Part shown: positions 1 through 22,530 of the stretch, one piece after another
Numbering within the stretch: position 1 is the first letter of the stretch
Layout: each line of letters starts with the position of its first letter
Virus genome (UHGV): UHGV-2020843
Strand: one strand, 5' to 3'
DNA length: 24,644 bases
From: a virus
Translations under genes and position numbers: made by a program
Notes under the pieces: model-generated
The model's database searches: none
Seen by the model: the letters and a program-made list of their open reading frames with translations, nothing else
What the model was told of the DNA's origin: nothing

Positions 1-401
1 GCTGTAGGATTATCAAGCCCGACGTGATCACCATGCCAGTGACTACCGCCATTAATGGAGCAGTCAAAACCTAACAAGATGATGTTTTTCGCCCCCTGGC
101 TGGCAGCAAACAGAATAGCGCGCTGCCCGGAGTTGAAGGCCCACCGGGTATCTGTATCAAACAGATTTAGCCCATAGCGTTTATGAGCCCGGTAATTACA
201 GGTCCAGCGAGAGGCGGAGGACGGCAGAACATCGATGTTTGCATCCCACCAGCGCAGATCACCCGCGTAAATGTATTCACAATCAGGCACGGCTCGCCAG
301 GTGGAGTTAACAGCAATAACCGGCAGCCCCGATCCGGAGATCAGTTCGCAATCTGATTTATTGAGAGACGGGCCGGATGCACAAATGATGAATGTATTCA
401 T
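1..401 (-). CDS. Hypothetical protein, N-terminal 133 aa only (gene continues beyond window start); first gene downstream of Q and the terminator
   Basis: Minus-strand frame open from ATG at 401 to position 1 with no stop (MNTFIICASGPSLNKSDCELISGSGLPVIAV...). GPSL motif is reminiscent of DUF115/MptE-like folds, but this is unverified. Confidence 0.5.
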   Translation of the reverse strand, partial: MNTFIICASGPSLNKSDCELISGSGLPVIAVNSTWRAVPDCEYIYAGDLRWWDANIDVLPSSASRWTCNYRAHKRYGLNLFDTDTRWAFNSGQRAILFAASQGAKNIILLGFDCSINGGSHWHGDHVGLDNPT

Positions 402-594: not shown

Positions 595-625
595 ATAAAA
601 AAACCCGCTCGGAGGCGGGTTTAAT
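595..625 (-). terminator. Intrinsic terminator on minus strand (tR'-like position, downstream of Q)
   Basis: Minus-strand reading gives AAACCCGC-CTCCGA-GCGGGTTT followed by TTTTT; lies about 80-110 nt after the Q stop codon. Confidence 0.55.
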
Positions 626-704
626 TTCGTGCAGGCGCAATAACCTACGATTTGAAGCATACACGACAAGTTCGGACAAAATCAAGTTTTAAGTCGCTAA
701 TATG

Positions 705-1508
705 CTAAATTTTGTTCACATCACCACGAAAGCTCGTTGCGTCCTGAAACGCCGAGTCTGCTTTTTGTTCTTCCCTGTGGCAGACGTCGACGAGCACCTC
801 CAGAAACGGTTTCCAGTTACGGGTCCACGTTCTGACGTGCAGATCCGTGACTCGCTTCAGTATCGCTTTATAGGCTGCAGTAGACGGCACCCCAGAAAAT
901 CCGTTTCCGCTGCAGCGCTCGCAGGTTTTGAACACCGGCGCGCCGCGCTCGCTTGTGGCTTTGCGGTCGAGCACCTCACCTTTGCCGCCGCAACGGCATC
1001 GGGCCAGCAGCTCACCTTTACCGTTACATGCCGCGCATTTACGCTTGACCAGTTCGTGCTTGATTTTCGGCGGTACGATTTCCATTCCGTCAGAGTTGAA
1101 GACTCCAGGATGTTTGATCACATCCTCATACTGAGAGGTTAATCCGCTGCCGCTGCAGCTGTGACACGTCACGCTGGTTTCCGCTGAACGGGAGTATTCA
1201 GCAAAGGCGAATTGTGCCAGCGTCAGCATGCACCAGCCAAACTCTCCTGCAGCTGCTTTACGTACATTCCTGGGAGCTGATTCCATTGCATGACGCGCCA
1301 GAGCCTGTACAGCCAGCTGCTCATCACTTTTGCTGATCCCGGTCTTACCAAAGAAGGCAGCCAGACCAAACCGCGCTCGGCTGCTGGTGGTACCAATGGC
1401 CGCCATAACATCGGTGCCGGTGATACGATCCGGAGAGGTTCCTTTCACGTCGTCGCTGATGTGCATTCCCTGAGGGCTAAAGTGTTTTAGTGATGCCTCC
1501 AGTTTCAT
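705..1508 (-). CDS. Q: Late-gene antitermination protein, lambda Q family
   Basis: 267-aa ORF; recalled lambda Q shares blocks EASLKHFSP/ESVAKFHSP, TGTDVMAAIG/SGTDVMAAMG, FGLAAFFGK/FGMAAFCGK, YSRSAET/YCRSAAT, PSTAAYKAI/PASAAYRAV and C-terminal VLVDVCHREEQKAD/ALVVQCHKEESIAD; Cys-rich zinc-finger region. Start overlaps upstream stop as ATGA. Confidence 0.8.
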   Translation of the reverse strand: MKLEASLKHFSPQGMHISDDVKGTSPDRITGTDVMAAIGTTSSRARFGLAAFFGKTGISKSDEQLAVQALARHAMESAPRNVRKAAAGEFGWCMLTLAQFAFAEYSRSAETSVTCHSCSGSGLTSQYEDVIKHPGVFNSDGMEIVPPKIKHELVKRKCAACNGKGELLARCRCGGKGEVLDRKATSERGAPVFKTCERCSGNGFSGVPSTAAYKAILKRVTDLHVRTWTRNWKPFLEVLVDVCHREEQKADSAFQDATSFRGDVNKI

Positions 1509-2365
1509 TCTTCACACTCCCCTACCAGGTTAAGAATCACCGCCGCGCCGTGGTTTTCCATGAATTCGTCCTTTCCACTGTCAAGAAACCAGCGACATAC
1601 CTCAACGGCTTCGACGCGCGTTACGGGTTTGATGGTAGCCAGCAATTTTTCAAGGTAGCGCTCGCGGTCATATACCGATTCGTGATGCTCTGAGTAACCA
1701 AACTCATAGCCCTGTTCTTTAGTTGCAGTGTGGCGAACGCTGTAGAGCCAGTCCCAGTAAACAAACTCACGAACAACGTCAGAAAGCGTATTGGGCTCTG
1801 GCAGTACATCACGATAGCCTTCAACAAATGCCCGGCGCTGTTCATCAATTTCGTTCATACGGCTGCCGTTAATGCTGCCAGCTTTCCTCTCGGCCGGAGT
1901 CCATCCCCAAAGGTGATCGTCGATAAATTTCGGGGAAGACTTGATTACTCGCTCGGCCTCCACATCTTCGAGAGCTGCCTCATAGCTGCCGAACGTGGCC
2001 CTGACTGATGCTGCTTTTTTGATGTCCTCCCGGGCGTTCCTGATTGCCTGTGCCGGGTTATCCATGCCGATGGTACCGAAAGCAACCTGGAAAGGATCGC
2101 CACCATTCGCCAGCAAATAACGCGCGTAACGTTCCTCGGCCTCTTTTGGGGAGATTTCAATTTTCTCCAGCGCGGCTTCGGCTGCGTCCAGATGTGCGGG
2201 TTCGTTCAGACGGATCACCTCCAGCACCCAAAGATAAGCGTCAGTTTGCTTATGCCCGGTGATTCTCCGTTGCTCGGGCAGACGCTTGATGTTTGCGAGG
2301 GCGGAGCTGTGCGCTGCCGTCGGGATGGTGAATAGTGCTTTATGTTCGTTGTTATCAGTACGCAT
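1505..2365 (-). CDS. Hypothetical protein (286 aa) translationally coupled between primase and Q
   Basis: Long ORF with TAATG overlap to primase stop and ATGA overlap to Q start; no motif I can assign. Confidence 0.6.
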   Translation of the reverse strand: MRTDNNEHKALFTIPTAAHSSALANIKRLPEQRRITGHKQTDAYLWVLEVIRLNEPAHLDAAEAALEKIEISPKEAEERYARYLLANGGDPFQVAFGTIGMDNPAQAIRNAREDIKKAASVRATFGSYEAALEDVEAERVIKSSPKFIDDHLWGWTPAERKAGSINGSRMNEIDEQRRAFVEGYRDVLPEPNTLSDVVREFVYWDWLYSVRHTATKEQGYEFGYSEHHESVYDRERYLEKLLATIKPVTRVEAVEVCRWFLDSGKDEFMENHGAAVILNLVGECEE

Positions 2366-3339
2366 TACGCAGCCGCCTTTTTCTTGAAGAAAACCACCTC
2401 ACGAACCTGATCGCCGTTCATGAGCATGTCGTTAAAATCCCCGTTATCCGGGTAGTAGATGCTGATTTTTTCCAGGTCATTTTTTGCCAGTAAGTTGGCA
2501 TGGGCGCATTCCGTGGCCGCAGCCAATCCAGTGGCGCTGTTTACGTCTCGATCTGCGAAAATAATCAAATTTTTCACACCTGCAGGAACACGGAATTTCT
2601 TCATGAATCCGCTGGTCATGGTGGCCCAGGTGTTAACGTTGTATAGCTGCTTGCAGGAAAGAGCCGTTTCGATACCCTCGGCAATTCCGAGGGTCGTCGC
2701 TACCGGGAACATGCGAATAGCGACGGAACGGGCATGATCCAGATAGCTTTCGTCCTGAAGAGATTTCTGGCGCTTCGCTCCGGCAGAATCCCTTAGTTGG
2801 GCTTTCTGATTGCCGTCCAGTAAGGTTCTGTGCAGATAGCAAAGCTCGCCTTTGTCGTCAGTTGCGAGTGAATACAGACACTGGTAAACCTTACCGCCGT
2901 AGCGTTGTTTATCATTGAACTTCACTGCCTCTTGTGGGAGCTGATAAATTCCCCTGGCCTGCAGATATTCCGCCCCGGTAGTTCCTTTCAGGTTGACCAG
3001 TTTCGAAAATTTGGACAGAACCCGATCACGGGCGCTTACGGCATCTGAAGTGCGCGGAAACGCTTCGCGGGTAAAGTTATTACCAATCAGCTGGTCTATT
3101 TCCCTGCAAATTTCATTGAATGGCTTCCCTTGCGTCAGAGTGACAAGCTTCATTCCGTCACCGCTGCCGCAGGTACAGATCCATGTTCCCCGGCCGTCCC
3201 GGTCATCAATACGCAGCTTTCCCCGCGCACCACATACCGGACATTCGCCTTTAAAGTGATTTCTGGCATTAATGGGAGGTAACCCGAAGTGCTCAAAAAT
3301 CATTGCCCATTGACCTTTTGCCGCTTCTGCCGTCTTCAT
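2365..3339 (-). CDS. DNA primase (zinc-ribbon plus TOPRIM domain, phage/P4-type)
   Basis: N-terminal CPVCGARGK...WICTCGSGDG zinc-binding motif followed by TOPRIM-like IAEGIETALS and FADRD acidic motifs; ATGA overlap with helicase stop. Confidence 0.8.
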   Translation of the reverse strand: MKTAEAAKGQWAMIFEHFGLPPINARNHFKGECPVCGARGKLRIDDRDGRGTWICTCGSGDGMKLVTLTQGKPFNEICREIDQLIGNNFTREAFPRTSDAVSARDRVLSKFSKLVNLKGTTGAEYLQARGIYQLPQEAVKFNDKQRYGGKVYQCLYSLATDDKGELCYLHRTLLDGNQKAQLRDSAGAKRQKSLQDESYLDHARSVAIRMFPVATTLGIAEGIETALSCKQLYNVNTWATMTSGFMKKFRVPAGVKNLIIFADRDVNSATGLAAATECAHANLLAKNDLEKISIYYPDNGDFNDMLMNGDQVREVVFFKKKAAA

Positions 3340-4952
3340 GCTCGTTTTCCTAACTGCTGTTTGATATCGCTAATCGCTTTCTGTGCTTGCTGTACTGAGG
3401 ATGGGGCTGCCGTGCCTGATGCCTCCTGCAGGCGCTTGGCCTTCTCCTGCCCTTTCGCATACGCAATCAATTTGTGCCGGATGAAATTAGAGACAGTCGG
3501 GGTGATCTCCATCGGAAAATCGCTTAACCCGTTAGGCCACTCGTCAAACCGTTCGCGAAAGGTATTTGCGCACCAGCCATCGCTGACGGGCTTTTTCCCC
3601 TGCGATACGCGCTGACGCTGATAGAATTTGATCTGACTCCACCAGGCCTGTTTCTCTGCCTTAGTGGGCTGATGCTGGTTTTTACCCAGCTTTTTGAGTT
3701 TGCGGCCGGTGTCGGTATCGACGTCCTCACCGCCCAGCGGCTTATGCCCACATTTCGGGCATACATAGACGCCAGCTGGCTTCATGTAATGGCATTGAGA
3801 GCATTCGTGTGGCAGTTTTTCGGCCCGTTCCTCAGCTGCGCGGCGCGCGCTTTCCTCCATGCCGTCAGACTTACCGGGAAGATCGTCGTACTCGATTGAA
3901 TCCGGATAACCCAAACGGTGCACGGTACCGCTGTGATCGAAGATGAGGCAGGACTCTTTACCCGGTGCGGTGCGCAGGCCACGCCCGAGCGCCTGCAGCC
4001 AGCGAATTTCGCTTTTTGTTGGCCTGGCGTAGATGATGCAACGAACGTCACTATCGAAGCCGGCCACCAGAACGCCCACACTAACGATGATTTTCGTTGC
4101 ACCGGTTTCAAAGCGGTGAATGATGGTCTGGCGTTCATCCACTGGAGTGTCGGCGGTCATGACCTCAGCGTTAACACCCGCCAGGTTAAACTGAATTGTC
4201 AGGTAATTGGCGTGGGCTACGTTGACGCAGAAAGCGATGGTAGGCAGATCCCGGCCATTCTCCAGCCAGTTCTGTACGATGTCGCCCACCAGCGTAGAGC
4301 CGCACATGATTTCAGCCAGCTGCGTTTCGTTGTAATCGCTGCCGTACTCAAGCGATGCTTTGGTTTTAACACCTTTCAGATCCGGCTTAGTTGGCGCGTA
4401 AAATTCATATTTACTCAGATCGCCACGCTGAATTAACTCGCCGATGGTGGTGGGCTTAATCAGTCGGTCATAGTATTTGCCCAGGAACGGGGAAAACGGA
4501 GTACCCGACAGGCCAATCACCTTTACGCCTTTGCCGCGTAGACGGTCGATATCCTTCAGGATGCGTTTTTTACGCAGGTGTGCTTCGTCGATAATCAGCA
4601 GATCGATATTTTCAGGAAAAACACGACGAATAAGCGTATCGGCGCTGGCAATCTGAATTTTCCGGTCCGGATCGTAGTTCGGGTGATCCGCCCAGATATA
4701 ACCGATTTCATCCCCCGGTAATCCATACTCCACGAACCGATTAGCCGTCTGACCGATCAGGATGGTGTACGGTGCACAGAACAGGACGCGCATACCACGG
4801 CTGACAAACCCGGCAACGATGAAGGCCGCCAAACCCGTTTTACCGCTACCGGTTGGCGAATACACCATGAAGGTGTCGTTTGCCTTCCAGTCACGGCGCA
4901 ACATGTTTAGCGCTCGTTCCTGTGCAAAATTCGGCGTGATCGTCAGCTCCAT
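3336..4952 (-). CDS. Phage SF2 DNA helicase (DEAD/DEAH-box type)
   Basis: Walker A SPTGSGKT, Walker B IIDEAHL, C-terminal Cys4 motif CSQCH...CPKCGH; 538 aa; GGGGG ribosome-binding site upstream. Confidence 0.8.
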   Translation of the reverse strand: MELTITPNFAQERALNMLRRDWKANDTFMVYSPTGSGKTGLAAFIVAGFVSRGMRVLFCAPYTILIGQTANRFVEYGLPGDEIGYIWADHPNYDPDRKIQIASADTLIRRVFPENIDLLIIDEAHLRKKRILKDIDRLRGKGVKVIGLSGTPFSPFLGKYYDRLIKPTTIGELIQRGDLSKYEFYAPTKPDLKGVKTKASLEYGSDYNETQLAEIMCGSTLVGDIVQNWLENGRDLPTIAFCVNVAHANYLTIQFNLAGVNAEVMTADTPVDERQTIIHRFETGATKIIVSVGVLVAGFDSDVRCIIYARPTKSEIRWLQALGRGLRTAPGKESCLIFDHSGTVHRLGYPDSIEYDDLPGKSDGMEESARRAAEERAEKLPHECSQCHYMKPAGVYVCPKCGHKPLGGEDVDTDTGRKLKKLGKNQHQPTKAEKQAWWSQIKFYQRQRVSQGKKPVSDGWCANTFRERFDEWPNGLSDFPMEITPTVSNFIRHKLIAYAKGQEKAKRLQEASGTAAPSSVQQAQKAISDIKQQLGKRA

Positions 4953-5380
4953 TGTGCTGCCCCCGTGCTGATGAGATAATAATTTTGTGATGTGGTTTTC
5001 ATGGATTCCCCCTCACATGGCTGGTGGCCTCCCCAAAGGCTGCCAGCCTCCCTTCTGATTCAGCTCCTCTGAAAAAATCACTCTTCCAGGAAGAACCCTT
5101 TTCGTTTCTCAGCGCCTGAGCGCTTTGTACTACCTTGCTGATACAGGCGTTTTTTAAATTGCGCCCTTAAGACAGTGATCTACCTAACCAATGGATCTCT
5201 CCTGTTGGAAAAGACCCTATTCCTGCCCCTACACCCAATCCCCCCTTACCCCCCTTTCCCTCTTCCCCATAAAAACGTACTACTTCCCTAGTACATATGA
5301 GGAGTTGGGTCAGTTGGTTGCCAACCTGAACAGGCACCTTTAAGCCTGCTTCTGTTCGGGTACCTTTAAACCCGAAACAA

Positions 5381-5922: not shown

Positions 5923-6010
5923 ATACTTTAGGATTTGGATGATATTACCATAGTATTAATTTAGCAAGAATACTCTAGTGTTGAATGGAAAAAGCTTTTG
6001 TACTAAATTA
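5923..6010. promoter_or_regulatory. Immunity switch: three operator sites (5923-5936, 5945-5958, 5970-5983) with divergent PR-like and PRM-like promoters
   Basis: Three 14-bp sites each 2 mismatches from palindrome AATACTATAGTATT, spaced 22-25 bp. Minus strand -35 TTGCTA (5963-5968) and -10 TATCAT (5940-5945), 17-bp spacer, for cro. Plus strand -35 TTGAAT (5982-5987) and -10 TAAATT (6005-6010), 17-bp spacer, for cI. Confidence 0.5.
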
Positions 6011-9275: not shown

Positions 9276-9474
9276 TTGCGTACCCCTTTCTACGTACTGC
9301 AGGGACGCGGGGGAAACGGTAGAAGCCGTTAACAAACGGATACAAAGGGGGTTATGGAAGGAGGGAGTACATGTATTAAAAGTCGATGGCGTTAAAGAAC
9401 GCTGGATTGACTTAACGGAGGTTTCAAAGTGGGCAAGAAAGAACAAGGATCATTATCTCTCCCAAGAGGAGTAA
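9265..9474 (+). CDS. xis: Excisionase-like protein
   Basis: About 69 aa, immediately upstream of and overlapping the integrase; GGGAGG ribosome-binding site; small basic DNA-binding-like protein in the canonical xis position. Confidence 0.55.
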   Translation: MSLDCVPLSTYCRDAGETVEAVNKRIQRGLWKEGVHVLKVDGVKERWIDLTEVSKWARKNKDHYLSQEE

Positions 9475-10601
9475 CCATCCGCCAGCATAAAACTGGCGAC
9501 ACTCTGGTTATCACTTTCACATACAAAGGGGTTCTGTGCCGGGAGCCCCTCTCCAAAATGGAAGCAAACGCGCGCGGTGTGAAGTACGCCGAGCGCCTGC
9601 TCGGGGAGATACAGAACCAGATCGTCAGTGGCACCTTTGAATATGCGAAATATTTCCCCAACTCCAAAAAGCTGGAGCTATTCGGGGTGGTGAAGAAAAC
9701 CAAAAACATAAAGTCCTACCTGGACGAGTACCTCAAAATCTGCCAGAACCGCAACCTGTCCCCGTCGACTATAAATGGTTATGAAAAATGCCTGTCGGCA
9801 CTGTCAGCTCTGCATAAACTCCACGTGTCAGAACTGACGCCAGCGGTCCTTAAAAACTGGATAGCCAGCCGGAAAACAAAGCTGAAAACGACCAGGAATA
9901 ACCTTTCGTTTCTGCGCAGCGCAATCGATGAAGCTGTTACGGATGGCCTGCTGACCATTAACCCGGTAACCCTCGTCAGCGCCAGCCGGTACCACGTGAT
10001 CGACAGCAGCCCGAGCGCCGACGATTACGAGGTTGACCCGTTCACGCCAGCGGAGACCCTCGCCATTTACCAGAACTGCAGGTACCCGGAATGGGAAAAC
10101 CTGTTCCGCTTTGCTTTCAATACCGGTCTGCGGAGCTCCGAACTGTGCGCGCTGCGCTGGCCTGATCTCGACACCATCGCGAACACAGCCCACGTTCAGG
10201 CGGCCAGTGTCGTAGGGGTACTTAAAGGCACCAAGACAAAAGCCGGTACCCGCAAGGTGGAGCTGAACAGTGAGGCGCTGGCGGCCCTGCAGGCGCAGAA
10301 GCAATACACCTTTATGAAAAGTGAGTTCATATTCAGCGATCCGAAAACGGGAGAACCCTGGGCGAACGCCGACGCTATCCGTAAAAAAGCATGGGTGCCG
10401 ACCCTGAAAAAAGCTGGCGTGCGCTACCGTAACCCGTACCAGACGCGGCACACATTCGCCACCAAGCATATTAGCCAGGGCGTTAACCTCTTCTGGCTTG
10501 CCGGACAGATGGGCCACAAAGGGCCGGAAATGATATTCCGCAACTACGGTAAATACCTGGCTGAATATGACGGTAAAACCGCGATTTCAACCGCGCTGTA
10601 G
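9429..10601 (+). CDS. int: Tyrosine site-specific integrase (lambda Int-like)
   Basis: 390 aa; C-terminal catalytic region with RHTFATKH, GHKG and YGKY (R-H-R-Y type residues); located next to the attachment-site core. Confidence 0.85.
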   Translation: MGKKEQGSLSLPRGVTIRQHKTGDTLVITFTYKGVLCREPLSKMEANARGVKYAERLLGEIQNQIVSGTFEYAKYFPNSKKLELFGVVKKTKNIKSYLDEYLKICQNRNLSPSTINGYEKCLSALSALHKLHVSELTPAVLKNWIASRKTKLKTTRNNLSFLRSAIDEAVTDGLLTINPVTLVSASRYHVIDSSPSADDYEVDPFTPAETLAIYQNCRYPEWENLFRFAFNTGLRSSELCALRWPDLDTIANTAHVQAASVVGVLKGTKTKAGTRKVELNSEALAALQAQKQYTFMKSEFIFSDPKTGEPWANADAIRKKAWVPTLKKAGVRYRNPYQTRHTFATKHISQGVNLFWLAGQMGHKGPEMIFRNYGKYLAEYDGKTAISTAL

Positions 10602-10839: not shown

Positions 10840-10963
10840 GTGCCCTCAATTTGTCCCGCGAAGTCCGAAGAGAACTAATTAAATCCGAACCTTTTAGGCC
10901 CATTGATAGGCCCAACGAAAAGCTCTATTGTTTACGTTGGGCCTAAACGCAGGGAGACTCCCC

Positions 10964-12205
10964 ATGGCAAGAAAAACCAAGCCGTTAACTGATACGGAAA
11001 TCAAAGCCGCCAAACCTAAAGATGCCGATTACCAGCTTTATGACGGTGACGGGCTTACTCTGTTAATCAAGTCCAGTGGCAGTAAGCTTTGGCAATTCCG
11101 TTACTATCGGCCTTTGACCAAGCAGCGAACCAAACAGAGCTTCGGTGCCTATCCTGCCGTCTCGCTTTCTGATGCACGTAAACTCAGAGCCGAATCTAAA
11201 GTTTTATTGGCGAAAGACATTGATCCTCAGGAACATCAGAAAGAACAGGTGAGGAATTCTCAAGAGGCCAAAACCAATACCTTCTTGTTAGTTGCCGAGC
11301 GTTGGTGGAATGTGAAGAAAACCAGCGTAACAGAGGACTATGCCGACGATATCTGGCGCTCGCTTGAGAGAGATATTTTCCCGGCAATCGGTGATATCAG
11401 TATCACTGAGATTAAGGCTCATACTCTGGTTAAAGCAGTTCAGCCGGTTCAGGCCAGAGGTGCATTAGAGACTGTTCGCCGCCTTTGTCAGCGTATTAAC
11501 GAAGTCATGATTTATGCGCAGAACACAGGCCTGATTGATGCTGTTCCTAGTGTAAATATCGGAAAAGCTTTCGAGAAACCGCAAAAGAAAAACATGCCAA
11601 GCATCCGGCCGGATCAACTTCCGCAGCTAATGCACACCATGCGTACGGCAAGTATCAGCATGTCCACAAGATGCCTGTTCATGTGGCAACTTCTAACCAT
11701 CACCCGCCCTGCCGAAGCTGCTGAGGCTCGATGGGATGAGATCGATTTCAATGCTAGCGAATGGAAAATTCCTGCAGCTCGAATGAAGATGAACCGGGAC
11801 CATACGGTTCCACTATCTGATGGGGCTCTTGCTATTCTGGAAATGATGAAGCCTCTCAGTGGTGGCCGAGAATTTATCTTTCCTAGCCGTATCAAGCCCA
11901 ACCAACCAATGAATAGCCAAACAGTGAATGCAGCACTCAAGCGTGCTGGCTTAGGAGGTGTACTTGTTTCACACGGCTTGCGTTCTATCGCCAGTACGGC
12001 ACTCAATGAGGAAGGATTTCCACCTGATGTCATTGAAGCAGCGCTTGCTCATGTAGACAAAAATGAGGTGCGTCGCGCTTATAACCGCAGTGATTATCTT
12101 GAGCAACGTCGTCCGATGATGCAATGGTGGGCTGATCTCGTAAAAGCAGCAGATAGTGGTAGCATCGTTTTAACTCATTTGAGCAAAATTCGTCTTGTCG
12201 GATAA
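10964..12205 (+). CDS. intA: P4-type tyrosine integrase IntA
   Basis: 413 aa starting MARKTKPLTDTEIKAAKPKDADYQLYDGDGLTL; AGGGAG ribosome-binding site; C-terminal HGLRS...AHVDKNEVRRAYNRSDY catalytic region. Confidence 0.9.
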   Translation: MARKTKPLTDTEIKAAKPKDADYQLYDGDGLTLLIKSSGSKLWQFRYYRPLTKQRTKQSFGAYPAVSLSDARKLRAESKVLLAKDIDPQEHQKEQVRNSQEAKTNTFLLVAERWWNVKKTSVTEDYADDIWRSLERDIFPAIGDISITEIKAHTLVKAVQPVQARGALETVRRLCQRINEVMIYAQNTGLIDAVPSVNIGKAFEKPQKKNMPSIRPDQLPQLMHTMRTASISMSTRCLFMWQLLTITRPAEAAEARWDEIDFNASEWKIPAARMKMNRDHTVPLSDGALAILEMMKPLSGGREFIFPSRIKPNQPMNSQTVNAALKRAGLGGVLVSHGLRSIASTALNEEGFPPDVIEAALAHVDKNEVRRAYNRSDYLEQRRPMMQWWADLVKAADSGSIVLTHLSKIRLVG

Positions 12206-12448
12206 AATATTTATCAGCCCAGCTCTCTGGGCTGATATTTCTAAAAGATCGCACTAAATAGCTACGCGGAATAGTGCTCTACTTTCGTTTAGCCCTTTCA
12301 GAGGTAAGACATTAGGGCAATTTCACTGTATGACTGCGCAGTCATCGAGTCTGTGGGGTGTTGCTCCTTTTGCAACGTATCACTTGTCAATAAATAGAAA
12401 GTGTAGATGTATTAGGCGCAGCTATTTAGTCTATATGGCAAGTAGTAA

Positions 12449-13405
12449 TTATTTACTTCTTTTTTTTCTACGAACAGCGCTATCGAAAGCTTGTTTTACA
12501 TCTTCATTTTTTAAAGACCATTGATTTAAAATAGTATCAACCAAAGCATCTTGACTCATTGTTGCTACACGATATTTTTTATTTTGATTATTTATCTCAA
12601 ACTCTGACATTTGAATAAAATCCCATAGCGGTTCGATAAGTTCATTAACTGCTACAACCTTATTTTTCCACCCATCATTCGGAACAGAGTCATTAATTAG
12701 CTCAACCAACTTCAGTTGAATGATATGGTACACTTCCGCTTTGCTTTTGCCACCCTTCTTTCCTGCACTCCGCCTGACTTCTGATAATTTTTTTTGATTA
12801 CAAACAGAGATGTTAAACCAAGTCATACCTATGCACTTATCAAATAACTCCGCAGCCCGATGAAATGCTTTAAAGGCAACGTTTTCATTTTCAGACATGA
12901 TAGATTTTCCCCAGAAAAAAGAGATTGAGGCGAACATAAGGTGTGCCTTGAAAATGTCATTAATGGAAAATGGCTCGATAACAAGAGGTAAAAACGTTTC
13001 CTTGGTAAGGTTTGAACTTAGATTTTTCCAGCATTCTTGAGCTGGATCATATAATTCAGTGTATTCTTCCTTTATCTCCAGTTGCCCATTCACTGTATGG
13101 TGCCTTGTTTCCCATGGTACATCGCAGGAATATAACCTCACACGAGTACCTATTTTCTCAGAGCTCCAGAATTGCTCTCGCATTCTGCCTAGCTCAATCC
13201 GTATTTCCGGATGATCTTCCTCTAGAACATCAGTATCCACCGCCCATTCGCATTCGGACATGTGATAGGCGAGATCACGTCGTTTTCTACAAATTTGTTC
13301 ATAAAAATCATTCAGAGAAATCATAAAACCACCATAAATCAATGTATTAGAGGTTGTAAAAATTGTATTTTTGGTACATGGGTTTTTTGCCTTAAAGATA
13401 CCCAT
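12449..13405 (-). CDS. yfjH: Uncharacterised island protein YfjH (318 aa from ATG at 13405; alternative start at 13324)
   Basis: AT-rich ORF between intA and alpA, on the opposite strand; position and length match recalled CP4-57 yfjH. Confidence 0.65.
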   Translation of the reverse strand: MGIFKAKNPCTKNTIFTTSNTLIYGGFMISLNDFYEQICRKRRDLAYHMSECEWAVDTDVLEEDHPEIRIELGRMREQFWSSEKIGTRVRLYSCDVPWETRHHTVNGQLEIKEEYTELYDPAQECWKNLSSNLTKETFLPLVIEPFSINDIFKAHLMFASISFFWGKSIMSENENVAFKAFHRAAELFDKCIGMTWFNISVCNQKKLSEVRRSAGKKGGKSKAEVYHIIQLKLVELINDSVPNDGWKNKVVAVNELIEPLWDFIQMSEFEINNQNKKYRVATMSQDALVDTILNQWSLKNEDVKQAFDSAVRRKKRSK

Positions 13406-13448
13406 TAATCTCTCTGCAACCAAAGTGAACCAATGAGAGGCAACAAGA

Positions 13449-13661
13449 ATGAACAATCGATCGGCCGTTAGAATACTACGGTTACCAGCGGTTATCCAAA
13501 AAACAGGTATGGCACGGGCCACCATCTATGACTGGTTGAACCCCAAATCACCACGATACGATGCCACCTTTCCCAAAAAGCGAATGCTCGGCGTGAAATC
13601 TGTCGGATGGATTGAGGCCGAGATTGATGAGTGGTTATCACAACGCTGTAAACTTATTTGA
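13449..13661 (+). CDS. alpA: AlpA-family transcriptional regulator (excision/int regulator)
   Basis: 70 aa, MNNRSAVRILRLPAVIQKTGMARATIYDWL HTH typical of AlpA/phage regulatory proteins. Confidence 0.85.
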   Translation: MNNRSAVRILRLPAVIQKTGMARATIYDWLNPKSPRYDATFPKKRMLGVKSVGWIEAEIDEWLSQRCKLI

Positions 13662-13789
13662 GGGTGTTACATGAATTCATACTCAATTGCTGTCATCGGA
13701 GTGTAAACATCCTGCTATTTCCGCCATTAATAGCGGAATAGCCATATTTGCTAAACAATTTCTTAATTTAATTAAATAAGAGGCATTGC

Positions 13790-15199
13790 ATGTTCAATGG
13801 TCGTCCTTTCCCTGTAGATGCATTTCCTAAAATTATCAGGAATGCAATTTATGAAGTGGAACAGCATACGCAGGCCCCTCAAGGTTTGATTGCTGCTTCT
13901 GCTCTTGGGGTAATTTCTCTTGCCTGTCAGAACCGGATTGATGTTTGCCGATTGAATAATCTACGTGGCCCGGTATCACTTTTCTTAATGACTCTGGCTG
14001 AATCAGGTGAACGTAAGAGTACGGTTGATAAACTGCTGATGAAGCCATTATATCAACTGGAAGAGGATTTATTTGAAAAATACACCCACGATCTTACCGC
14101 ATGGAGAAATGATGAAGCAATTTTTAATATTGAAAAAAAAGCACTGATGTCAAAACTTAAATCAGATATTCGACGTAACAAAGATCACTTGGCAACAAAT
14201 GAAAGACTTAAAGAACTACTTACGACAAACCCGAAAGCTCCAGTGAGATTCAAATTTTTATTTAACGATGCCACACCTGCAGCTATTAAAGCTCATCTCT
14301 GTGGGCACTGGCGATCAGTCGGCATCATGTCTGATGAAGCTGGGATCATTTTTAATGGTTACACACTTAACGAGCTGCCGTTTATCAATAAGATGTGGGA
14401 TGGTTCAATATTTACGGTGGAAAGGAAAAACGAGCCCGAGAAATTAATTAGAGATGCAAGAATAACACTGTCGCTGATGGTCCAGCCTAATGTTTTTAAG
14501 GGTTATATCGACAGGAAAGGAGATATGGCAAAGGGGATTGGATTTTTTGCACGGTGCCTCATGTGCCAGCCTGCTTCAACACAAGGTAACAGAAAAATTT
14601 CCAACCCAATTTTTTCAAATGAACATTTGCCGGTATTTCACCAACGTCTTATGGAAATTGTTAATGAGAGCATCATTAAAATTAATGAAAATAATCGCAT
14701 CTGCCTCCGATTCTCTGCAGAAGCAGAAAGACATTGGATCGAATTCTACAACCAGGTCGAGTCAGAAATGAGAATGATTGGCCTTCTTTATGATTTTAAG
14801 GATTATGCTTCTAAAATGGCGGAGAACATGGCGAGGCTTGCTGCCTTACTTCATTACTTCAGCGGTGATGGAGGCGATATATCTGTTACCGCAGTAAAAG
14901 CAGCAGTGGAGATAGTGGCTTGGTATATTGAAGAATACATCCGCTTGTTCTCTAAAAAAGAAGAGTTTTCTTTAGATGTTTCAGAAGCAGATGAGCTTTA
15001 TTGTTGGATAAAAGATTACTGCACGCAAAAATTTTCTTCCTGCATCAAGAAAAATATTATCTTACAATTTGGGCCAAATAAATTTAGAAATCGTGACAAG
15101 GCAAATGAATTAATTAGAATCTTAATTTCACAAAACAAAATATTTATATCTTCATGGGGTAAAACAAAAATAATAAACATAACTCATTGTGTTTTTTGA
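13790..15199 (+). CDS. yfjI: YfjI, DUF3987-type protein (possible replication or primase-associated)
   Basis: 469-aa ORF in AT-rich region following alpA, matching CP4-57 order. Confidence 0.75.
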   Translation: MFNGRPFPVDAFPKIIRNAIYEVEQHTQAPQGLIAASALGVISLACQNRIDVCRLNNLRGPVSLFLMTLAESGERKSTVDKLLMKPLYQLEEDLFEKYTHDLTAWRNDEAIFNIEKKALMSKLKSDIRRNKDHLATNERLKELLTTNPKAPVRFKFLFNDATPAAIKAHLCGHWRSVGIMSDEAGIIFNGYTLNELPFINKMWDGSIFTVERKNEPEKLIRDARITLSLMVQPNVFKGYIDRKGDMAKGIGFFARCLMCQPASTQGNRKISNPIFSNEHLPVFHQRLMEIVNESIIKINENNRICLRFSAEAERHWIEFYNQVESEMRMIGLLYDFKDYASKMAENMARLAALLHYFSGDGGDISVTAVKAAVEIVAWYIEEYIRLFSKKEEFSLDVSEADELYCWIKDYCTQKFSSCIKKNIILQFGPNKFRNRDKANELIRILISQNKIFISSWGKTKIINITHCVF

Positions 15200-15351
15200 T
15201 TTTAATGACAATCTAAAAGGACTTAATTTAAGAGTAAAAACAAACTCTAAACCCAGTTCGGATAAAAGCTTGTCATCTTGATAGGTAATATATAGGTACA
15301 TAGACACATCAGAACGATCACTTACTCCAATATCATTGGCCAGGATACTAT

Positions 15352-15978
15352 ATGACATACGATAGTGAATTCGGATCACATGTATCCCTATATCGGGATA
15401 GAATCAAACAGGTTATTGATGACTCCCTAAACGAACATCTTAACTCAATGATTCTACGTGTTGATCTGCATGACCCAATTGATACAGAAAATATGGATAA
15501 CCCATTCTTTCAACCCAGGGTTGACTCTGGTGCTATATCTCGCTTTACCAGTGCGTTAAAAGCAAAGCTTAAACACGATAAGCATATTAAAACTCAACGG
15601 AAAGACTGGCCTGATACTCGACATTCAACCTTACGTTACGCATGGGTCCGAGAATATACCAAAAATAGAAAGCGGCATTACCATTTGATACTGTGTTTCA
15701 ATCAGGATGCTTATTATCATTTAGGTGATTACGACTTAAACCGTAACACGTTACGTACAATGATAACGACAGCTTGGTACAGTGCACTTGGCATCCCTAT
15801 AGATAGCTCGGGGAAGTTAGTTAATTACCCGCCAAATGGCAAATACCTTCTCAATCGTAAAAGGGACAACTTTGAGCAGACTTATAGCGATTTGATGAAT
15901 AGGGTGGATTACATGACCAAAGTAAGGACTAAAATAGTCGGTGACGGAGACCGTAATTTCGGCTGCAGTCGCGGGTAA
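15352..15978 (+). CDS. yfjJ: YfjJ, YagK/YfjJ-family protein (inovirus Gp2-like replication-initiation fold)
   Basis: 208-aa ORF with AGGA ribosome-binding site, followed by a hairpin terminator. Confidence 0.7.
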   Translation: MTYDSEFGSHVSLYRDRIKQVIDDSLNEHLNSMILRVDLHDPIDTENMDNPFFQPRVDSGAISRFTSALKAKLKHDKHIKTQRKDWPDTRHSTLRYAWVREYTKNRKRHYHLILCFNQDAYYHLGDYDLNRNTLRTMITTAWYSALGIPIDSSGKLVNYPPNGKYLLNRKRDNFEQTYSDLMNRVDYMTKVRTKIVGDGDRNFGCSRG

Positions 15979-15996
15979 TTTATTTTTTACAACAAT

Positions 15997-16035
15997 GGCC
16001 TTTCTTATGGCTGGAAAGGCCTGATTTGTTTGTAT
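15997..16035 (+). terminator. Intrinsic terminator between convergent yfjJ and yfjK
   Basis: GGCCTTTC-9 nt loop-GAAAGGCC hairpin followed by T-rich TGATTTGTTTGTATT. Confidence 0.6.
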
Positions 16036-16155
16036 TAAGATATCGGTAATCTTTTGATGGTTGGAAGCCCGTCCTGGTAGACGACCTAGCCTACCGAAGA
16101 TGTGAGTTATTCAAAAATGTCGCTTTCCCGCGTTCCGTAGACAAACGTACCTAAA

Positions 16156-18345
16156 TCAATGTCGTCTAATACCGAGCGCGCGCCTGATAAACATCTGATC
16201 AACGTACCCAATCGATCTACTCCAAATGTCCTGAGTATCCCGAAGATACTGGCTCAACTCATCCACATCAGCCTCGTCGGAAAATTCCAGCAAGTCTACC
16301 AGTCGGTGTAACGTCTGAATGGGAATGCCAATCTCTTCTAAGGCATTGACACCTGGTGGTAGATGGAAACTTTCGAACGCCAATTTGACATGTGTGTAAT
16401 CGACTTTGCTGCGTATACCACGCTTTACAGCGTGGTGTTTAACTACATCCTCCATCAAGCTGAGCACCTTAGGTAGGGTATAGCCGAAGGTATTGGTTAT
16501 GAGCTTCAAATCATTGTTGAGGGCAATGGAAAGAGTACGTTTCTCCCCTTCAGAAATCCACTGTCGTGCATAATCGATCTGATTTTTCAGATATTCCGAA
16601 TAACTTTCAGCACTTAAATAGCCGGCAAGTTTTGCGATCATGACATCCGTAGGCTTAACAGGGACCCCATTGCGACTGAACGTATGGGGAACCAGTCTGG
16701 CAATGATCTTTGCAAAGGTCTTGAGGAAGTTTGTCGCGGGAGTCCAGTGAAACACTAACGAGGAAAATTCGTTATCGTCCATCATCTCGAACATGCTTTG
16801 CAGCATTTCGAACTGCTCGACACGGAAGTACGAATGCTTCTTCACAAGGTCGATGGAAACACGGTCGTTTATGAAAACCTCATCAAAGCGATCCTGTGAA
16901 AACTCGGACAAGTGGTCTGGTTGAACGCTGGCTAACAGGTTGATTGGGGTATCAATGCCCTGAATACCGAGCGGAATATCCACCTCTTGATTGAGATTGT
17001 CTTCCGGGATTTCCTCCAGGCAAAAGATTTTGCCGACGAAGTGAACGCCCATGCGCCCGGCGCGACCTTTGATGTTCCCATGGGTGAATTTGTCAATGCT
17101 GCGAGTTCCATCGCGGTTGTCGTAGATCACAACGTTCTTAGCGATAGTGTTGACTCCTTCAATGATCGTGGAGGTGCAGAGCAAAAAGCGCAGTTTTCCA
17201 GCATTGAATTGGTCGGCAGTGTATTGCTGCAGTGCCCTCGGTAGCGCGCCAAAATGCAAGCCAATACCGTTTCTAAGGGCGACTGTGTAATCCCAGTCGG
17301 CATCGAACTCTTCGCTGACCCAGTCGACATGGGGATTCTCAGTCGGAGTGCCATGCCCAAGCCTGATCAGCTCGCGCGCCACCAGGCCCGCAACAGTTGG
17401 TGACTTGCAATAAATGATCGTTGCGTCGACACATGCGTGCGCGATTTCCCCCAGCGCTTTGAGCTTGGCTTTGTCGTCATTCGCTTTGATGCCGAACGTC
17501 TTAACATCTAGCGCGACTGTATTGAAGTCGGTAGAAACGAAAGTATGCGGATATCCAAGTTTTTCGAGACCGCGAATGCTGTTAACGAACGGTCCCGTCA
17601 GGTAAAACTGCCTGGAGACCTTAAGCAGTTTGCTTAACGCAATGTTGAGCTCGATGACTCGTTCGTCTTGATGATCAATGTCCCCGCTTTTCAGTTGTCG
17701 GAACGCCAACTTGTAAAACTCGTCAATGACGAAGAGGTCAATGTCGACGATGTCGTCACGCTCGTTCACTCGCTCCTGAGTTAACACATAAACAGCCTGA
17801 TCGGAATGGCACACTTGGGAACTGTGGTGGATGATCTGATATCGGTCACCGAATCGCTCTTGCAGTCGGCGACGGGTTTCGTCGGCAAGAGCCACGGTTG
17901 GAACAACCAGAACAAGCCGTTTCAAAGTTCCCATGCCGAGCAATGAATCGACGATTGCACTTTTGCCCATGCTTGTAGGTGCACTCAGCACCACGTTTTG
18001 ACCAGACTTGAGCAGATCGAATATGTGGAACTGCATTGAGTGGAAAACATAACCATCCGAGAATGGCGTCCGGTATAGCTCAAGCACCCTCAGGTCATCC
18101 GGTGTCAGGCTGGTGAACTCCTTTTTGAGATACGGGAACAAACCTGATTTTCTCACCATATTTTTCAAAATTGTGGTGTGCTCGGAAAACCGCTCGCGCG
18201 AATCGAGAGCTCGCACGATCAAGTCCCGTCCCAAGTCATACGAAACAGGGTTAGACAACAGCTTGTTAACCGCAAACAGATAATTGAACGATGAGAAGTC
18301 CTCACCCTGCAGGCTATGTTTCGCCTGTTCATAGATCTCTGTCAT
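16156..18345 (-). CDS. yfjK: SF2 helicase YfjK (AbpB), Hachiman-type defence helicase HamB homologue
   Basis: 729 aa with Walker A LSAPTSMGKS and DEAD/DExH-like VIDEFYKL; ATGA overlap with the upstream yfjL stop. Confidence 0.85.
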   Translation of the reverse strand: MTEIYEQAKHSLQGEDFSSFNYLFAVNKLLSNPVSYDLGRDLIVRALDSRERFSEHTTILKNMVRKSGLFPYLKKEFTSLTPDDLRVLELYRTPFSDGYVFHSMQFHIFDLLKSGQNVVLSAPTSMGKSAIVDSLLGMGTLKRLVLVVPTVALADETRRRLQERFGDRYQIIHHSSQVCHSDQAVYVLTQERVNERDDIVDIDLFVIDEFYKLAFRQLKSGDIDHQDERVIELNIALSKLLKVSRQFYLTGPFVNSIRGLEKLGYPHTFVSTDFNTVALDVKTFGIKANDDKAKLKALGEIAHACVDATIIYCKSPTVAGLVARELIRLGHGTPTENPHVDWVSEEFDADWDYTVALRNGIGLHFGALPRALQQYTADQFNAGKLRFLLCTSTIIEGVNTIAKNVVIYDNRDGTRSIDKFTHGNIKGRAGRMGVHFVGKIFCLEEIPEDNLNQEVDIPLGIQGIDTPINLLASVQPDHLSEFSQDRFDEVFINDRVSIDLVKKHSYFRVEQFEMLQSMFEMMDDNEFSSLVFHWTPATNFLKTFAKIIARLVPHTFSRNGVPVKPTDVMIAKLAGYLSAESYSEYLKNQIDYARQWISEGEKRTLSIALNNDLKLITNTFGYTLPKVLSLMEDVVKHHAVKRGIRSKVDYTHVKLAFESFHLPPGVNALEEIGIPIQTLHRLVDLLEFSDEADVDELSQYLRDTQDIWSRSIGYVDQMFIRRALGIRRH

Positions 18346-19958
18346 ACGACCTCTCTCACCTTCTCATCAACTAATTGGGTTAACCGCTCAAGACTCGGGG
18401 CTGGATAAATGAATACGTGGATGCAAAGATTCGCAAACGGCGAATCCTCGATGAGGTCAGCCGCGAATTTTTCGAACAGCACCGCTGTTTCTTTCTCCAG
18501 GTCATCCTCGAACCCCGGCGTTTCAGGCTCGGTTAGTAGATTAGAGTCGTAGCCCACGAACAGAACAAACGTGAAACGATCGAGGTGAGCATCGAAAGGT
18601 TGGCTGCCATCAAGAATTTCGTCAATGTCGTGGCGAAGCAGGTAGTTATCGTCTTTAATGTCGAGGATTTTTTTGCGCGCGGTATCGATGCAATCCGAAA
18701 TGTCCTCGTACAACTGATCCCGTATCTCCGGCAATCTGACGGCAATGTTAATATCAGTCACCAACTCGCTGAAGCCAATCCAAAGCTGATCACCTTCTGG
18801 ATCGCGGCGAACGATATGCACGTTTTCAAGAATTTTTTCGGCCCCTGCTTTTTCCACGTATAGCATGCAAGGAATAGGCTGGCTTTCGTGGTGCTGCCGG
18901 ATCGTTGCGTGCAACAGCACTCGACCCAAAAATTCGCTGACGTCATGGAGCGATTTGAAGACGGAATTCTTTAGTCGTTCTCGCTTTTCAATGAATGTCA
19001 GTTTATGAATATCAGACATTTCTTTTGGTCGGAGAAAAACCTCATCCAACCATTGACAGACGTTATCCGCGATGTGCTTGTAGCGGTATTTCTTAAGTGA
19101 GTACTGCTGATGTAGAACCTGGCCTTTACGCTTAGCGCAGACCGAAGCCATAGGCGCTCTAAATGGCGTAAGGATGTGGGGTAAGTCCCGTTTGACGTAG
19201 ATTTTGCGGCCTGACCGAGATTGGTCATCTTCGACACGCTGCTTGAACCACTCAAGTAGGTCTGGTCGTAAGTAGGACTTGTCATCAGCACTGTGAATGC
19301 GTCGAGAATGCTCGCCCTTGCGCGTCACAGTATCAAGGATGCGGCACCAAATGTCTTCGGCGACGGTTTCGGAACTGAGAATGACCCCATGTAGATCTTG
19401 GGAGGCCAGCCGTATGTTCTTGATCCCTAGAAGTTCCAGTTCGCGCAGGGATGAAAACACTTCCCATGTAGCCGCATCGATCCAATCTGAAACGCTTATA
19501 CCTGAGTCTGTTAAAAAATTGTCTGTGCGTTTGTTGAGGTCATCGATGAGTTCCTGTCGACCTGGCTTATCTAGTCGGGCGTTTGGGCTGATCGTCAAGT
19601 ACTCAAGGGTTTTGTTGACCTTTTCCTCTGTGACGATGGAGTACCTACGTCCAAGGGACAGGTCAGACTCACACTGCATTGATTTGTGCAAAATTGAACT
19701 GCAGGGGATCGTCTTTTTATCAGCACCTTTTGAATTCTGAACGATGTCCGAAATGTTCCAACGTGTTTTGCCGGTGCTTTTTACCTGAACGAAGTCGATG
19801 TATCCATCAGATACAATGTCGATATCGTCTGTGACCTCGCAGCGCACACTGCGGATAGTCTTGTCACGAAGCATTCGGGTGACATGGTAAGCGGCTACGC
19901 AGTCCTGAAATAAGAAACCGTGCTTGGCGGCTACTCCGCCTGAATCGTTCGACTCCAT
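18342..19958 (-). CDS. yfjL: YfjL (AbpA), Hachiman-type defence effector HamA homologue (DUF1837-type)
   Basis: 538-aa ORF immediately upstream of and translationally coupled to the helicase, in the conserved CP4-57 position. Confidence 0.8.
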   Translation of the reverse strand: MESNDSGGVAAKHGFLFQDCVAAYHVTRMLRDKTIRSVRCEVTDDIDIVSDGYIDFVQVKSTGKTRWNISDIVQNSKGADKKTIPCSSILHKSMQCESDLSLGRRYSIVTEEKVNKTLEYLTISPNARLDKPGRQELIDDLNKRTDNFLTDSGISVSDWIDAATWEVFSSLRELELLGIKNIRLASQDLHGVILSSETVAEDIWCRILDTVTRKGEHSRRIHSADDKSYLRPDLLEWFKQRVEDDQSRSGRKIYVKRDLPHILTPFRAPMASVCAKRKGQVLHQQYSLKKYRYKHIADNVCQWLDEVFLRPKEMSDIHKLTFIEKRERLKNSVFKSLHDVSEFLGRVLLHATIRQHHESQPIPCMLYVEKAGAEKILENVHIVRRDPEGDQLWIGFSELVTDINIAVRLPEIRDQLYEDISDCIDTARKKILDIKDDNYLLRHDIDEILDGSQPFDAHLDRFTFVLFVGYDSNLLTEPETPGFEDDLEKETAVLFEKFAADLIEDSPFANLCIHVFIYPAPSLERLTQLVDEKVREVV

Positions 19959-20217
19959 TTAGACATCCGTGACAATTTTGCGAAAATTAAGGAGATGTTA
20001 TGACACAGTCCAATCGGATCACTGCATCATCACCAGTGATCTAAATACTTCACAGCCATTCTCGGTCGCAGGTATCAAGCTTTTCAGGATTCCACAAATA
20101 TTGTAACCCTGACGTCTAATTTGGTTATATAACATACTGCCCCAACTAACGTAAGGTAGGCACAGCCTTAATCAAGGTTTTGGTTTTCAAATAGTTCAGA
20201 GCTGAGACCGCCAACCG

Positions 20218-22511: not shown

Positions 22512-22530
22512 ACTTTTCAGAGGAGTGGTG

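What the first reader, a model, noticed from the sequence alone, without database searches (positions are those of the whole stretch)
1505..2365. Uncharacterised 286-aa gene translationally coupled between primase and the Q antiterminator
Helicase, primase, the 286-aa ORF and Q form a chain of overlapping stop/start codons (ATGA, TAATG, ATGA), implying co-expression. The 286-aa protein has no motif I recognise and sits where lambdoid phages carry the variable nin region, which often hosts accessory functions. The coupling of Q directly to a helicase-primase module is itself a compact, unusual arrangement.
Basis: partly seen in the sequence, partly recalled or inferred. Interest (0 to 1): 0.5.

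Follow-up and report, generated by a model that had tools for sequence, protein, structure and literature searches.

The report
Unknown conserved phage gene before Q
This is a real, conserved but dispensable accessory gene of Fels-1-like prophages; it encodes an acidic, all-helical protein of unknown function with no recognisable structural relatives, and the gene order around it is normal for this phage group.

Summary
On the minus strand, helicase (3336-4952), primase (2365-3339), a 286-aa ORF (1505-2365) and Q (705-1508) overlap as ATGA / TAATG / ATGA. The ORF is under purifying selection (median dN/dS 0.15). It matches no Pfam, NCBIfam or PADLOC model. It is a full-length member of PHROG 6204 ("unknown function"), 82.5% identical to Fels-1 STM0902.

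The arrangement is not unusual. Helicase plus primase is the published "Eru1" replication unit. The slot between primase and Q is variable. It is empty in isolated phages YP3 and PSTCR3, whose helicase, primase and Q are close to the window's. It holds NinB/NinG/NinH or methyltransferases in other phages. The gene is therefore a dispensable nin-slot accessory, co-inherited with Q more than with primase.

Function remains unassigned. My best guess, at low confidence, is a non-enzymatic adaptor or regulator. Relatives carry HTH, RHH, ParB-N or Bro-N DNA-binding domains.

The parts
1505..2365 (-). The 286-aa ORF ('X'): an HTH-less member of PHROG 6204 (the Fels-1 STM0902 family). It is acidic (pI 5.2, net charge about -14) and all-alpha. 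The N lobe spans roughly residues 1-165 and the C lobe roughly 166-286; the C lobe corresponds to PHROG 2887/19083.
705..1508 (-). Q antiterminator, 267 aa, of the PF03589 type with DnaJ-like CXXC zinc-finger repeats. Its start overlaps the stop of X (ATGA).
2365..3339 (-). Primase, 324 aa (Zn_Ribbon_Prim + DUF7146 + Toprim_3), 55% identical to Eru1B of Stx phage TL-2011c. Its stop overlaps the start of X (TAATG).
   Evidence: PMC8044961
3336..4952 (-). SF2 DEAD/DEAH-box helicase, 538 aa (Eru1A-like). Its stop overlaps the primase start (ATGA).
601..622 (-). Strong intrinsic-terminator-like hairpin (8 pairs followed by TTTTT) 83 nt downstream of Q. This is the position expected for the terminator of a short late leader transcript on which Q acts.
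   Evidence: The functional role is inferred from lambdoid gene logic.
5939..5967 (-). PR-like sigma-70 promoter candidate (TTGCTA-17-TATCAT) upstream of the Cro/YdaS gene. It is the likely start of the early transcript that runs through helicase, primase, X and Q.
   Evidence: This is a consensus match only.

Best explanation
Shown by the analysis:
- ORF 1505-2365 (minus strand) is a genuine protein-coding gene made from the early rightward transcript together with helicase, primase and Q.
- It belongs to a widespread, uncharacterised family of early proteins of temperate phages and phage satellites (PHROG 6204; Fels-1 STM0902).
- It occupies the variable 'nin' slot between an Eru1-type helicase-primase replication unit and Q.
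- It is dispensable for a phage with nearly the same helicase, primase and Q.
- It lacks the DNA-binding domain that many relatives carry.
- It is inherited with Q more than with the primase.

Inferred, at low confidence: the protein is a non-enzymatic, acidic, all-alpha protein-binding module, that is, an adaptor or co-regulator. It would modulate a DNA-associated regulatory step of early lytic development rather than catalyse a reaction or bind DNA itself. In relatives the same core is tethered to DNA by any of four unrelated DNA-binding domains. In the Fels-1-type form the tether is gone and the protein is produced in fixed proportion to Q by stop/start coupling. It must therefore reach its target through protein contacts. 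The target is unknown.
For: A real gene and a coherent family:
- 387 homologues and 137 clusters at 50% identity.
- All 78 diverse members tested hit PHROG 6204.
- Median dN/dS is 0.15.

Structure:
- The AF2 model has pLDDT 90.7 and pTM 0.85 and is all-alpha, with 14 helices.

No enzymatic signature: the near-invariant positions are mostly P, W, Y, F, L and G, plus scattered D, E and R.

Charge: the protein is acidic (-13.6), while Q, primase and helicase are basic (+9 to +10).

Modular DNA-binding domains in relatives:
- Sigma70_r4_2 / HTH_23-type HTH in at least 14 members, and Bro-N in one.
- ParB-like in P0309 (named 'ParB/RepB/Spo0J family' by NCBI) and in other A1 members that hit ParB-like PHROGs.
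- RHH-like N-termini, by my reading of the sequences.

Dispensable accessory gene:
- The primase occurs in 129 phage records, X in only 12.
- Yersinia phage YP3 has helicase 93%, primase 76.5% and Q 78% identical to the window's and no X.
- PSTCR3 likewise has no X.
- Other phages fill the slot with NinB/NinG/NinH, methyltransferases, RusA or Lar.

Linkage to the regulator downstream:
- Of 134 unique loci, 79 have a PF03589 Q and 22 a PF06530 Q immediately downstream.
- In some satellites a PerC activator follows instead.
- Over 55 loci, X distances track Q distances (rho 0.68) better than primase distances (rho 0.40). Among close pairs the values are 0.44 and -0.02.
- The X-Q pair recurs in a satellite-like element with an unrelated primase-DUF927 and an SSB gene.
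Against: - No direct evidence exists for any binding partner or phenotype.
- No literature addresses the function.
- The Q family downstream is swapped (PF03589 or PF06530) while X stays at least 80% identical in 8 loci. This argues against a Q-specific contact.
- A phage with a 78%-identical Q works without X.
- In three betaproteobacterial prophages the homologue sits in the opposite, PL-like operon between the S24 repressor and integrase, with no Q nearby.
- Adjacency to Q may merely reflect X being the only nin-slot gene in a compact genome.
- The census is dominated by a few enterobacterial lineages.
Confidence: 0.35

Rival explanations
1. Replication-module accessory factor. X would bind the primase, SF2 helicase, SSB or a host replisome component and tune initiation, primosome assembly or copy number.
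For: - The immediate upstream neighbour is a replication gene in about 116 of 134 unique loci: primase 98, SSB 11, DnaB 5, SF2 helicase 2.
- This adjacency persists across unrelated replicon types: RepO/DnaB in Herbaspirillum, an IstB/DnaC-like gene in Xenophilus, D5_N and primase-DUF927 satellites.
- X overlaps the primase stop codon.
Against: - Only about 12 of 129 phage records with this primase have X.
- YP3 and PSTCR3 replicate with the same module and no X.
- X sequence distances do not track primase distances among close relatives (rho -0.02).
- Betaproteobacterial homologues lie in the operon opposite to the replication genes.
- There are no iterons or AT-rich origin features inside the ORF.
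Confidence: 0.2
2. Anti-defence or host-takeover factor. X would be an accessory protein that inhibits a host immunity or repair system, as other nin-region and PL-operon genes do (ren, Lar/Ral and Gam are recalled examples).
For: - X occupies the two classical accessory regions of lambdoid genomes: the nin slot and the PL-like operon in betaproteobacterial prophages.
- It is dispensable and patchily distributed.
- It is acidic and helical with no enzymatic motif.
- It shares the slot with methyltransferases and a Lar-like restriction-alleviation gene.
Against: - Fusion of the core to four kinds of DNA-binding domain is not typical of known anti-defence proteins.
- Sequence conservation is as high as that of the primase (mean pairwise distance 0.18 against 0.21), not the rapid divergence often seen in counter-defence genes.
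- There is no structural similarity to any solved anti-defence protein.
Confidence: 0.2
3. A sequence-specific helix-turn-helix transcription factor, as the RefSeq product name implies.
For: RefSeq and PGAP call it a 'helix-turn-helix domain-containing protein'. Distant relatives do carry an N-terminal HTH.
Against: - No HTH model matches the window protein at E<=0.1.
- The window protein aligns to residues 44-324 of the HTH-bearing relative P0133, so it starts just after that relative's HTH.
- The last helices are hydrophobic (AAVILNLVG) and the protein is strongly acidic.
Confidence: 0.03

Closest known systems
Salmonella phage Fels-1 STM0902 (YP_001700555.1) and PHROG 6204
   Same: Full-length homologue, 82.5% identical, with a PHROG HMM E-value of 6e-176 over residues 1-286. 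It has the same helicase-primase-X-Q order and the same overlapping junctions.
   Different: Nothing of substance. Both are uncharacterised 'hypothetical' proteins.
PHROG 2887: Klebsiella prophage gp43-like 'HTH domain protein' (158 aa; for example KPP5665-2 gp43)
   Same: It shares the C-terminal lobe (window residues 166-286, 39% identity) and the C-terminal LNLVGECEE tail. It has the same position between primase and a PF03589 Q.
   Different: It lacks the N lobe of X and has an unrelated N-terminus of about 50 aa. The C lobe can therefore stand alone.
Eru1 replication unit of non-lambdoid Stx phages (eru1A helicase, eru1B Toprim primase, eru1C; PMC8044961)
   Same: The helicase-primase pair is homologous (primase 55% identical) and has the same overlapping gene starts.
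   Different: The third gene in Eru1 is DUF1367/NinB, followed by NinG, NinH and a different antiterminator. None of these is related to X.
Lambdoid nin-region accessory genes (NinB/Orf, NinG/Rap, NinH, RusA, methyltransferases)
   Same: Same genomic slot between replication genes and Q. They are likewise variable and dispensable.
   Different: X matched no Pfam model, so it did not match the Pfam models of these families. X is all-alpha with no fold match in PDB.
Modular phage regulators of the Bro-N / KilA-N / Ant type (recalled from Iyer, Koonin and Aravind 2002; not re-read here)
   Same: The logic is the same: one conserved C-terminal module combined with interchangeable N-terminal DNA-binding domains. 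One relative is a Bro-N fusion that hits anti-repressor PHROGs through that domain. Bro-N genes follow X in some betaproteobacterial prophages.
   Different: The X core is not homologous to the known C-terminal modules. The window protein has no DNA-binding domain at all.

Membership tests
PHROG 6204 (Fels-1 STM0902-like, function unknown) | Full-length match to the family HMM | tested here: met
   E=5.8e-176, residues 1-286 on profile positions 1-286 of 286. All 78 diverse relatives also match.
Helix-turn-helix DNA-binding proteins (the RefSeq product name) | A recognisable HTH motif or domain in the protein | tested here: not met
   No Pfam HTH at E<=0.1. The HTH of relatives lies in an N-terminal extension of about 45 aa that the window protein lacks.
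Lambdoid nin-region accessory genes (a positional class) | Located between the replication genes and Q on the early rightward transcript | tested here: met
   Gene order and overlaps. The slot holds NinB/NinG/NinH and similar genes in relatives.
Lambdoid nin-region accessory genes (a positional class) | Dispensable for phage viability | tested here: met
   Comparative evidence only. Isolated phages YP3 and PSTCR3 have the same helicase, primase and Q and no X anywhere in the record. No deletion was made.
Core replication module (initiator, helicase loader or primase subunit) | Obligate co-occurrence with the helicase-primase pair | tested here: not met
   X is present in about 12 of 129 phage records that carry the primase.
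Core replication module (initiator, helicase loader or primase subunit) | Structural or sequence similarity to known loaders, initiators or primase C-terminal domains | tested here: not met
Q-specific cofactor or antagonist | Pairs with a single Q family and is present whenever that Q is | tested here: not met
   X is followed by PF03589 Q in 79 loci and by the unrelated PF06530 Q in 22. YP3 has the PF03589 Q without X.
Q-specific cofactor or antagonist | Physical interaction with Q | not testable with these tools
   No multimer prediction or experiment was available.
Rpp (PICI packaging-redirection proteins) | Protein of about 144-153 aa with a winged-helix DNA-binding domain and a coiled coil; the RppC structure is solved | tested here: not met
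Known anti-phage defence proteins (PADLOC) | Match to a defence-system HMM | tested here: not met
   0 families at E<=0.01 for X and for two distant relatives.

The most novel reading that the evidence does not exclude
The PHROG 6204 core could be a previously undescribed protein fold that temperate phages and their satellites deploy as a DNA-tethered effector, with HTH, RHH, ParB-N or Bro-N as interchangeable tethers. The tether-less, Q-coupled copy in Fels-1-like phages could act in trans in one of two ways. It could be a stoichiometric timer or antagonist of the early-to-late switch. Alternatively it could be a decoy that poisons the HTH-bearing copies carried by P4-like satellites, which have a core about 50% identical. 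Either role would be a new layer of phage regulation or of phage-satellite conflict.
Probability: 0.12. Interest if true: 0.65.

Novelty: new member of a known kind. Interest (0 to 1): 0.3.

Why it matters
For this window it matters little. The gene and its neighbourhood are a standard Fels-1-like early region that is already in the databases.

The family is a reasonable target for follow-up. It is widespread in Enterobacterales and Betaproteobacteria, in both prophages and P4-like satellites. It has no Pfam model and folds confidently into a structure with no detectable relative. Its public name ('HTH domain-containing protein') is misleading for the most common, HTH-less form. A natural 'deletion' (phage YP3) shows that it is not essential, so any role is modulatory.

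Tried and rejected
1. Sequence families. Pfam, NCBIfam and PADLOC gave nothing for the ORF. PHROGs gave only unknown-function families.

2. Solved structures by sequence. The only hit was an insignificant RelB match at E 0.58, and a profile of 78 relatives found nothing under E 0.05.

4. Rpp, the PICI packaging-redirection protein, was considered because homologues sit at the end of satellite operons. It was rejected on size and architecture.

5. Split C-terminal half of a longer primase. The primase covers only positions 16-363 of the 667-position PHROG 510 profile, which raised this idea. It was rejected because X does not hit PHROG 510.

6. Origin of replication hidden in the ORF. There are no iterons and no AT-rich dip.

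7. Internal duplication of the two lobes. hhalign probability was 0.4%.

8. A split DNA-binding domain in the small ORFs coupled upstream of HTH-less betaproteobacterial homologues. Those ORFs are mutually unrelated and show no evident DNA-binding domain.

9. Extra domains in longer relatives. No Pfam hits were found.

10. The search for related loci with family alignments failed because no conserved stretch was available.

11. Literature searches for STM0902, the PHROG identifiers and Fels-1 replication gave no functional data.

12. Rfam found no known RNA in the window.

Full report
**Observation.** ORF listing and direct reading of the sequence show four consecutive minus-strand genes: helicase 3336-4952, primase 2365-3339, a 286-aa ORF 1505-2365 (called X here), and Q 705-1508. 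Pfam identifies the helicase as an SF2 ResIII/DEAD/Helicase_C protein. It identifies the primase as Zn_Ribbon_Prim + DUF7146 + Toprim_3, and Q as PF03589 Antiterm (E=8e-51) with DnaJ-like zinc-finger repeats. X has no Pfam hit at E<=0.1, no meaningful NCBIfam hit and no PADLOC hit. A PR-like promoter precedes the Cro/YdaS gene at 5967-5939, and a strong terminator-like hairpin follows Q at 622-601. Nothing comparable interrupts the chain.

**Is it a real gene?** Yes. X has 387 homologues at E<=1e-3 in the 5.8-billion-protein set and 137 cluster representatives at 50% identity. Against 42 close homologues of identical length, the median dN is 0.045, dS 0.278 and dN/dS 0.15.

**What family is it?** X matches PHROG 6204 end to end (E=6e-176). 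Its C-terminal 115 residues also match PHROG 2887 and PHROG 19083. All three are 'unknown function'. All 78 diverse relatives tested match PHROG 6204.

The nearest annotated copies are 'hypothetical' genes in Escherichia phages vB_EcoS-611R1 (90.9%) and phi467 (88.8%), Salmonella phage Fels-1 (STM0902, 82.5%) and Cronobacter phage ENT39118 (78%). All sit between a primase and Q. Klebsiella prophages carry a 158-aa short form with only the C lobe, again between primase and Q and ending in the same LNLVGECEE.

RefSeq names the protein 'helix-turn-helix domain-containing protein'. In the family, however, the HTH (Sigma70_r4_2 / HTH_23-like) is an N-terminal extension of about 45 aa found in distant relatives. 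The window protein aligns to residues 44-324 of the HTH-bearing relative P0133 and has no HTH of its own. The name is misleading for this form.

**Structure.** An AlphaFold2 model built on 78 diverse relatives is confident (mean pLDDT 90.7, pTM 0.85). It is entirely alpha-helical, with 14 helices after an ordered N-terminal arm. It has no informative neighbour:
- Foldseek against PDB peaks at E=0.49.
- Foldseek against BFVD peaks at E=1.1.
- afdb50 could not be searched.

The two lobes are not a duplication. Near-invariant positions are mostly structural residues (P15, P30, G37, W46, Y80, F125, G126, P191, W204, L207, P247, L280) plus D42, E138, R211 and E252. No catalytic motif is apparent. 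The protein is acidic (pI 5.2, charge -13.6; C lobe -10.9), whereas Q, primase and helicase are basic.

**Domain fusions.** Relatives attach the same core to several unrelated DNA-binding domains:
- sigma-70-region-4-like or HTH_23-like HTH, and Bro-N;
- ParB-like N-termini, as in P0309 (named 'ParB/RepB/Spo0J family' by NCBI) and in other A1 members that hit ParB-like PHROGs;
- ribbon-helix-helix-like N-termini, by my reading of the sequences.

This suggests that the core acts on, or next to, DNA-bound complexes. The window protein has lost the tether.

**Genomic context.** I fetched 185 loci in all. The census used the 177 held at that point and extracted 134 unique X genes. I labelled the neighbours by homology and checked the labels with Pfam.
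- Upstream of X: Toprim primase in 98 loci, SSB in 11, ProQ/FinO in 7, DnaB in 5.
- Downstream of X: a PF03589 Q in 79 loci and an unrelated PF06530 Q in 22.
- In P4-like satellite elements (integrase, AlpA, primase-DUF927, SSB, HTH-X), X is followed by Q, by a PerC activator, or by nothing.
- In Herbaspirillum, X follows RepO/DnaB and precedes RusA.
- In Xenophilus, a ParB-X fusion follows an IstB/DnaC-like gene.
- In three betaproteobacterial prophages, X lies in the PL-like operon between the S24 repressor and integrase.

**Is the arrangement unusual?** No. The helicase-primase pair is the published Eru1 replication unit of non-lambdoid Stx phages (PMC8044961), and the window primase is 55% identical to Eru1B. 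That primase occurs in 129 phage records, and X occurs in about 12 of them. The slot after the primase is a typical variable nin region:
- NinB-NinG-NinH in TL-2011c;
- NinG plus a methyltransferase in a Klebsiella phage;
- a methyltransferase plus NinB and NinG in Vibrio phages;
- DksA-like, methyltransferase, NinB, RusA and Lar-like genes in Pseudomonas PS-1.

Most tellingly, the slot is empty in Yersinia phage YP3 and Providencia phage PSTCR3, both isolated from sewage or waste water. YP3's helicase, primase and Q are 93%, 76.5% and 78% identical to the window's. Its Q starts 6 nt after the primase stop, and X is absent from the whole record. X is not needed for replication or for Q function.

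**Which module does X belong to?** Among 55 loci with primase, X and a PF03589 Q, pairwise X distances correlate with Q distances (Spearman 0.68) more than with primase distances (0.40). Among close pairs the values are 0.44 and -0.02. The X-Q pair also turns up behind a completely different primase in a satellite-like element. Mosaic joints therefore fall more often between primase and X than between X and Q. Even so, 8 loci with X at least 80% identical carry the other Q family, and the C-terminal LNLVGEC motif is kept whichever Q follows. A Q-specific contact is therefore unlikely.

**Mechanism.** The data do not assign a function. I favour, at about 0.35, a non-enzymatic protein-binding adaptor or co-regulator that modulates a DNA-associated step of early lytic development and travels with the Q/late-regulator module. 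The rivals are:
- a replication-module accessory (0.2), supported by adjacency to replication genes but weakened by YP3/PSTCR3 and the lack of co-variation with the primase;
- an anti-defence or host-takeover factor (0.2), supported by its location in both classical accessory regions and its patchy distribution, but weakened by the DNA-binding-domain fusions and slow divergence;
- an HTH transcription factor as annotated (0.03), contradicted by the sequence.

Rpp, a split primase domain, a hidden origin and an internal duplication were each tested and rejected.

**Verdict.** The finding is a correct observation of an ordinary, already-catalogued gene arrangement. The gene is another member of an uncharacterised but widespread family. 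What may be new lies at the level of the family: it has no Pfam model, no fold relative, interchangeable DNA-binding tethers and a presence in both phages and satellites. This locus adds nothing beyond that.

Noticed in passing
window 5160-5372 (non-coding, between the 131-aa ORF ending at 5381 and the helicase start at 4952): On the minus strand there is a strongly G-rich tract (ggggaagagggaaaggggggtaaggggggattgggtgtagggg; GC skew down to -0.43 on the plus strand). It lies next to two 21-nt direct repeats spaced 26 nt apart (5326-5346 and 5352-5372). This could be the replication origin or a regulatory element of the helicase-primase module. No Rfam family matches.
   Followed up: partly
window 601-705: Downstream of Q there is a weak sigma-70-like promoter candidate on the minus strand by my own reading (TTGATT, 18-nt spacer, TATGCT at about 685-656; below the scan's threshold). 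It is followed by a strong terminator hairpin at 622-601. The layout resembles the lambda PR'/6S leader/tR' arrangement on which Q acts.
   Followed up: partly
window 3-401 (minus strand; the ORF runs off the window end): The first gene after the post-Q terminator encodes a protein with a sub-threshold MptE-like (PF01973) match (E=1e-7, 32.4 bits against a cutoff of 34.6). This is an unusual first late-operon gene.
   Followed up: partly
window 10928-24307: Immediately beyond the prophage integrase (9429-10601) lies a second, P4-type integrase (10928-12205) and a CP4-like island. The island carries DUF3987, YagK/YfjJ, a Hachiman-like pair (DEAD helicase 16156-18345 and Cap4-nuclease/HamA 18342-19958, both minus strand), the RnlA/RnlB toxin-antitoxin pair (20739-21812 and 21805-22176), a GTPase and DUF932.
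   Followed up: partly
L011 1-12148 (Logan SRR29694046 contig) and L012: This is a satellite-like element: integrase, AlpA, an 888-aa primase-DUF927, SSB. It carries an HTH-bearing X homologue followed by a PF03589 Q antiterminator whose N-terminus is nearly identical to the window's Q. A Q gene in a satellite suggests it could switch on a helper phage's late operon.
   Followed up: partly
window 1505-2365, and RefSeq homologues (for example WP_462090398.1 in L178): The RefSeq/PGAP product name 'helix-turn-helix domain-containing protein' appears to be carried over from HTH-bearing relatives to the HTH-less 285-286-aa form. No HTH is detectable in that form.
   Followed up: yes
L185 (Salmonella plasmid pLG26p2, NZ_CP045061.1 47367-62200): A complete Fels-1-like early region (helicase-primase-X-Q, followed by lysis and terminase genes) sits inside a 271-kb conjugative MOBF plasmid. 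A prophage of this type is therefore integrated in a plasmid.
   Followed up: no
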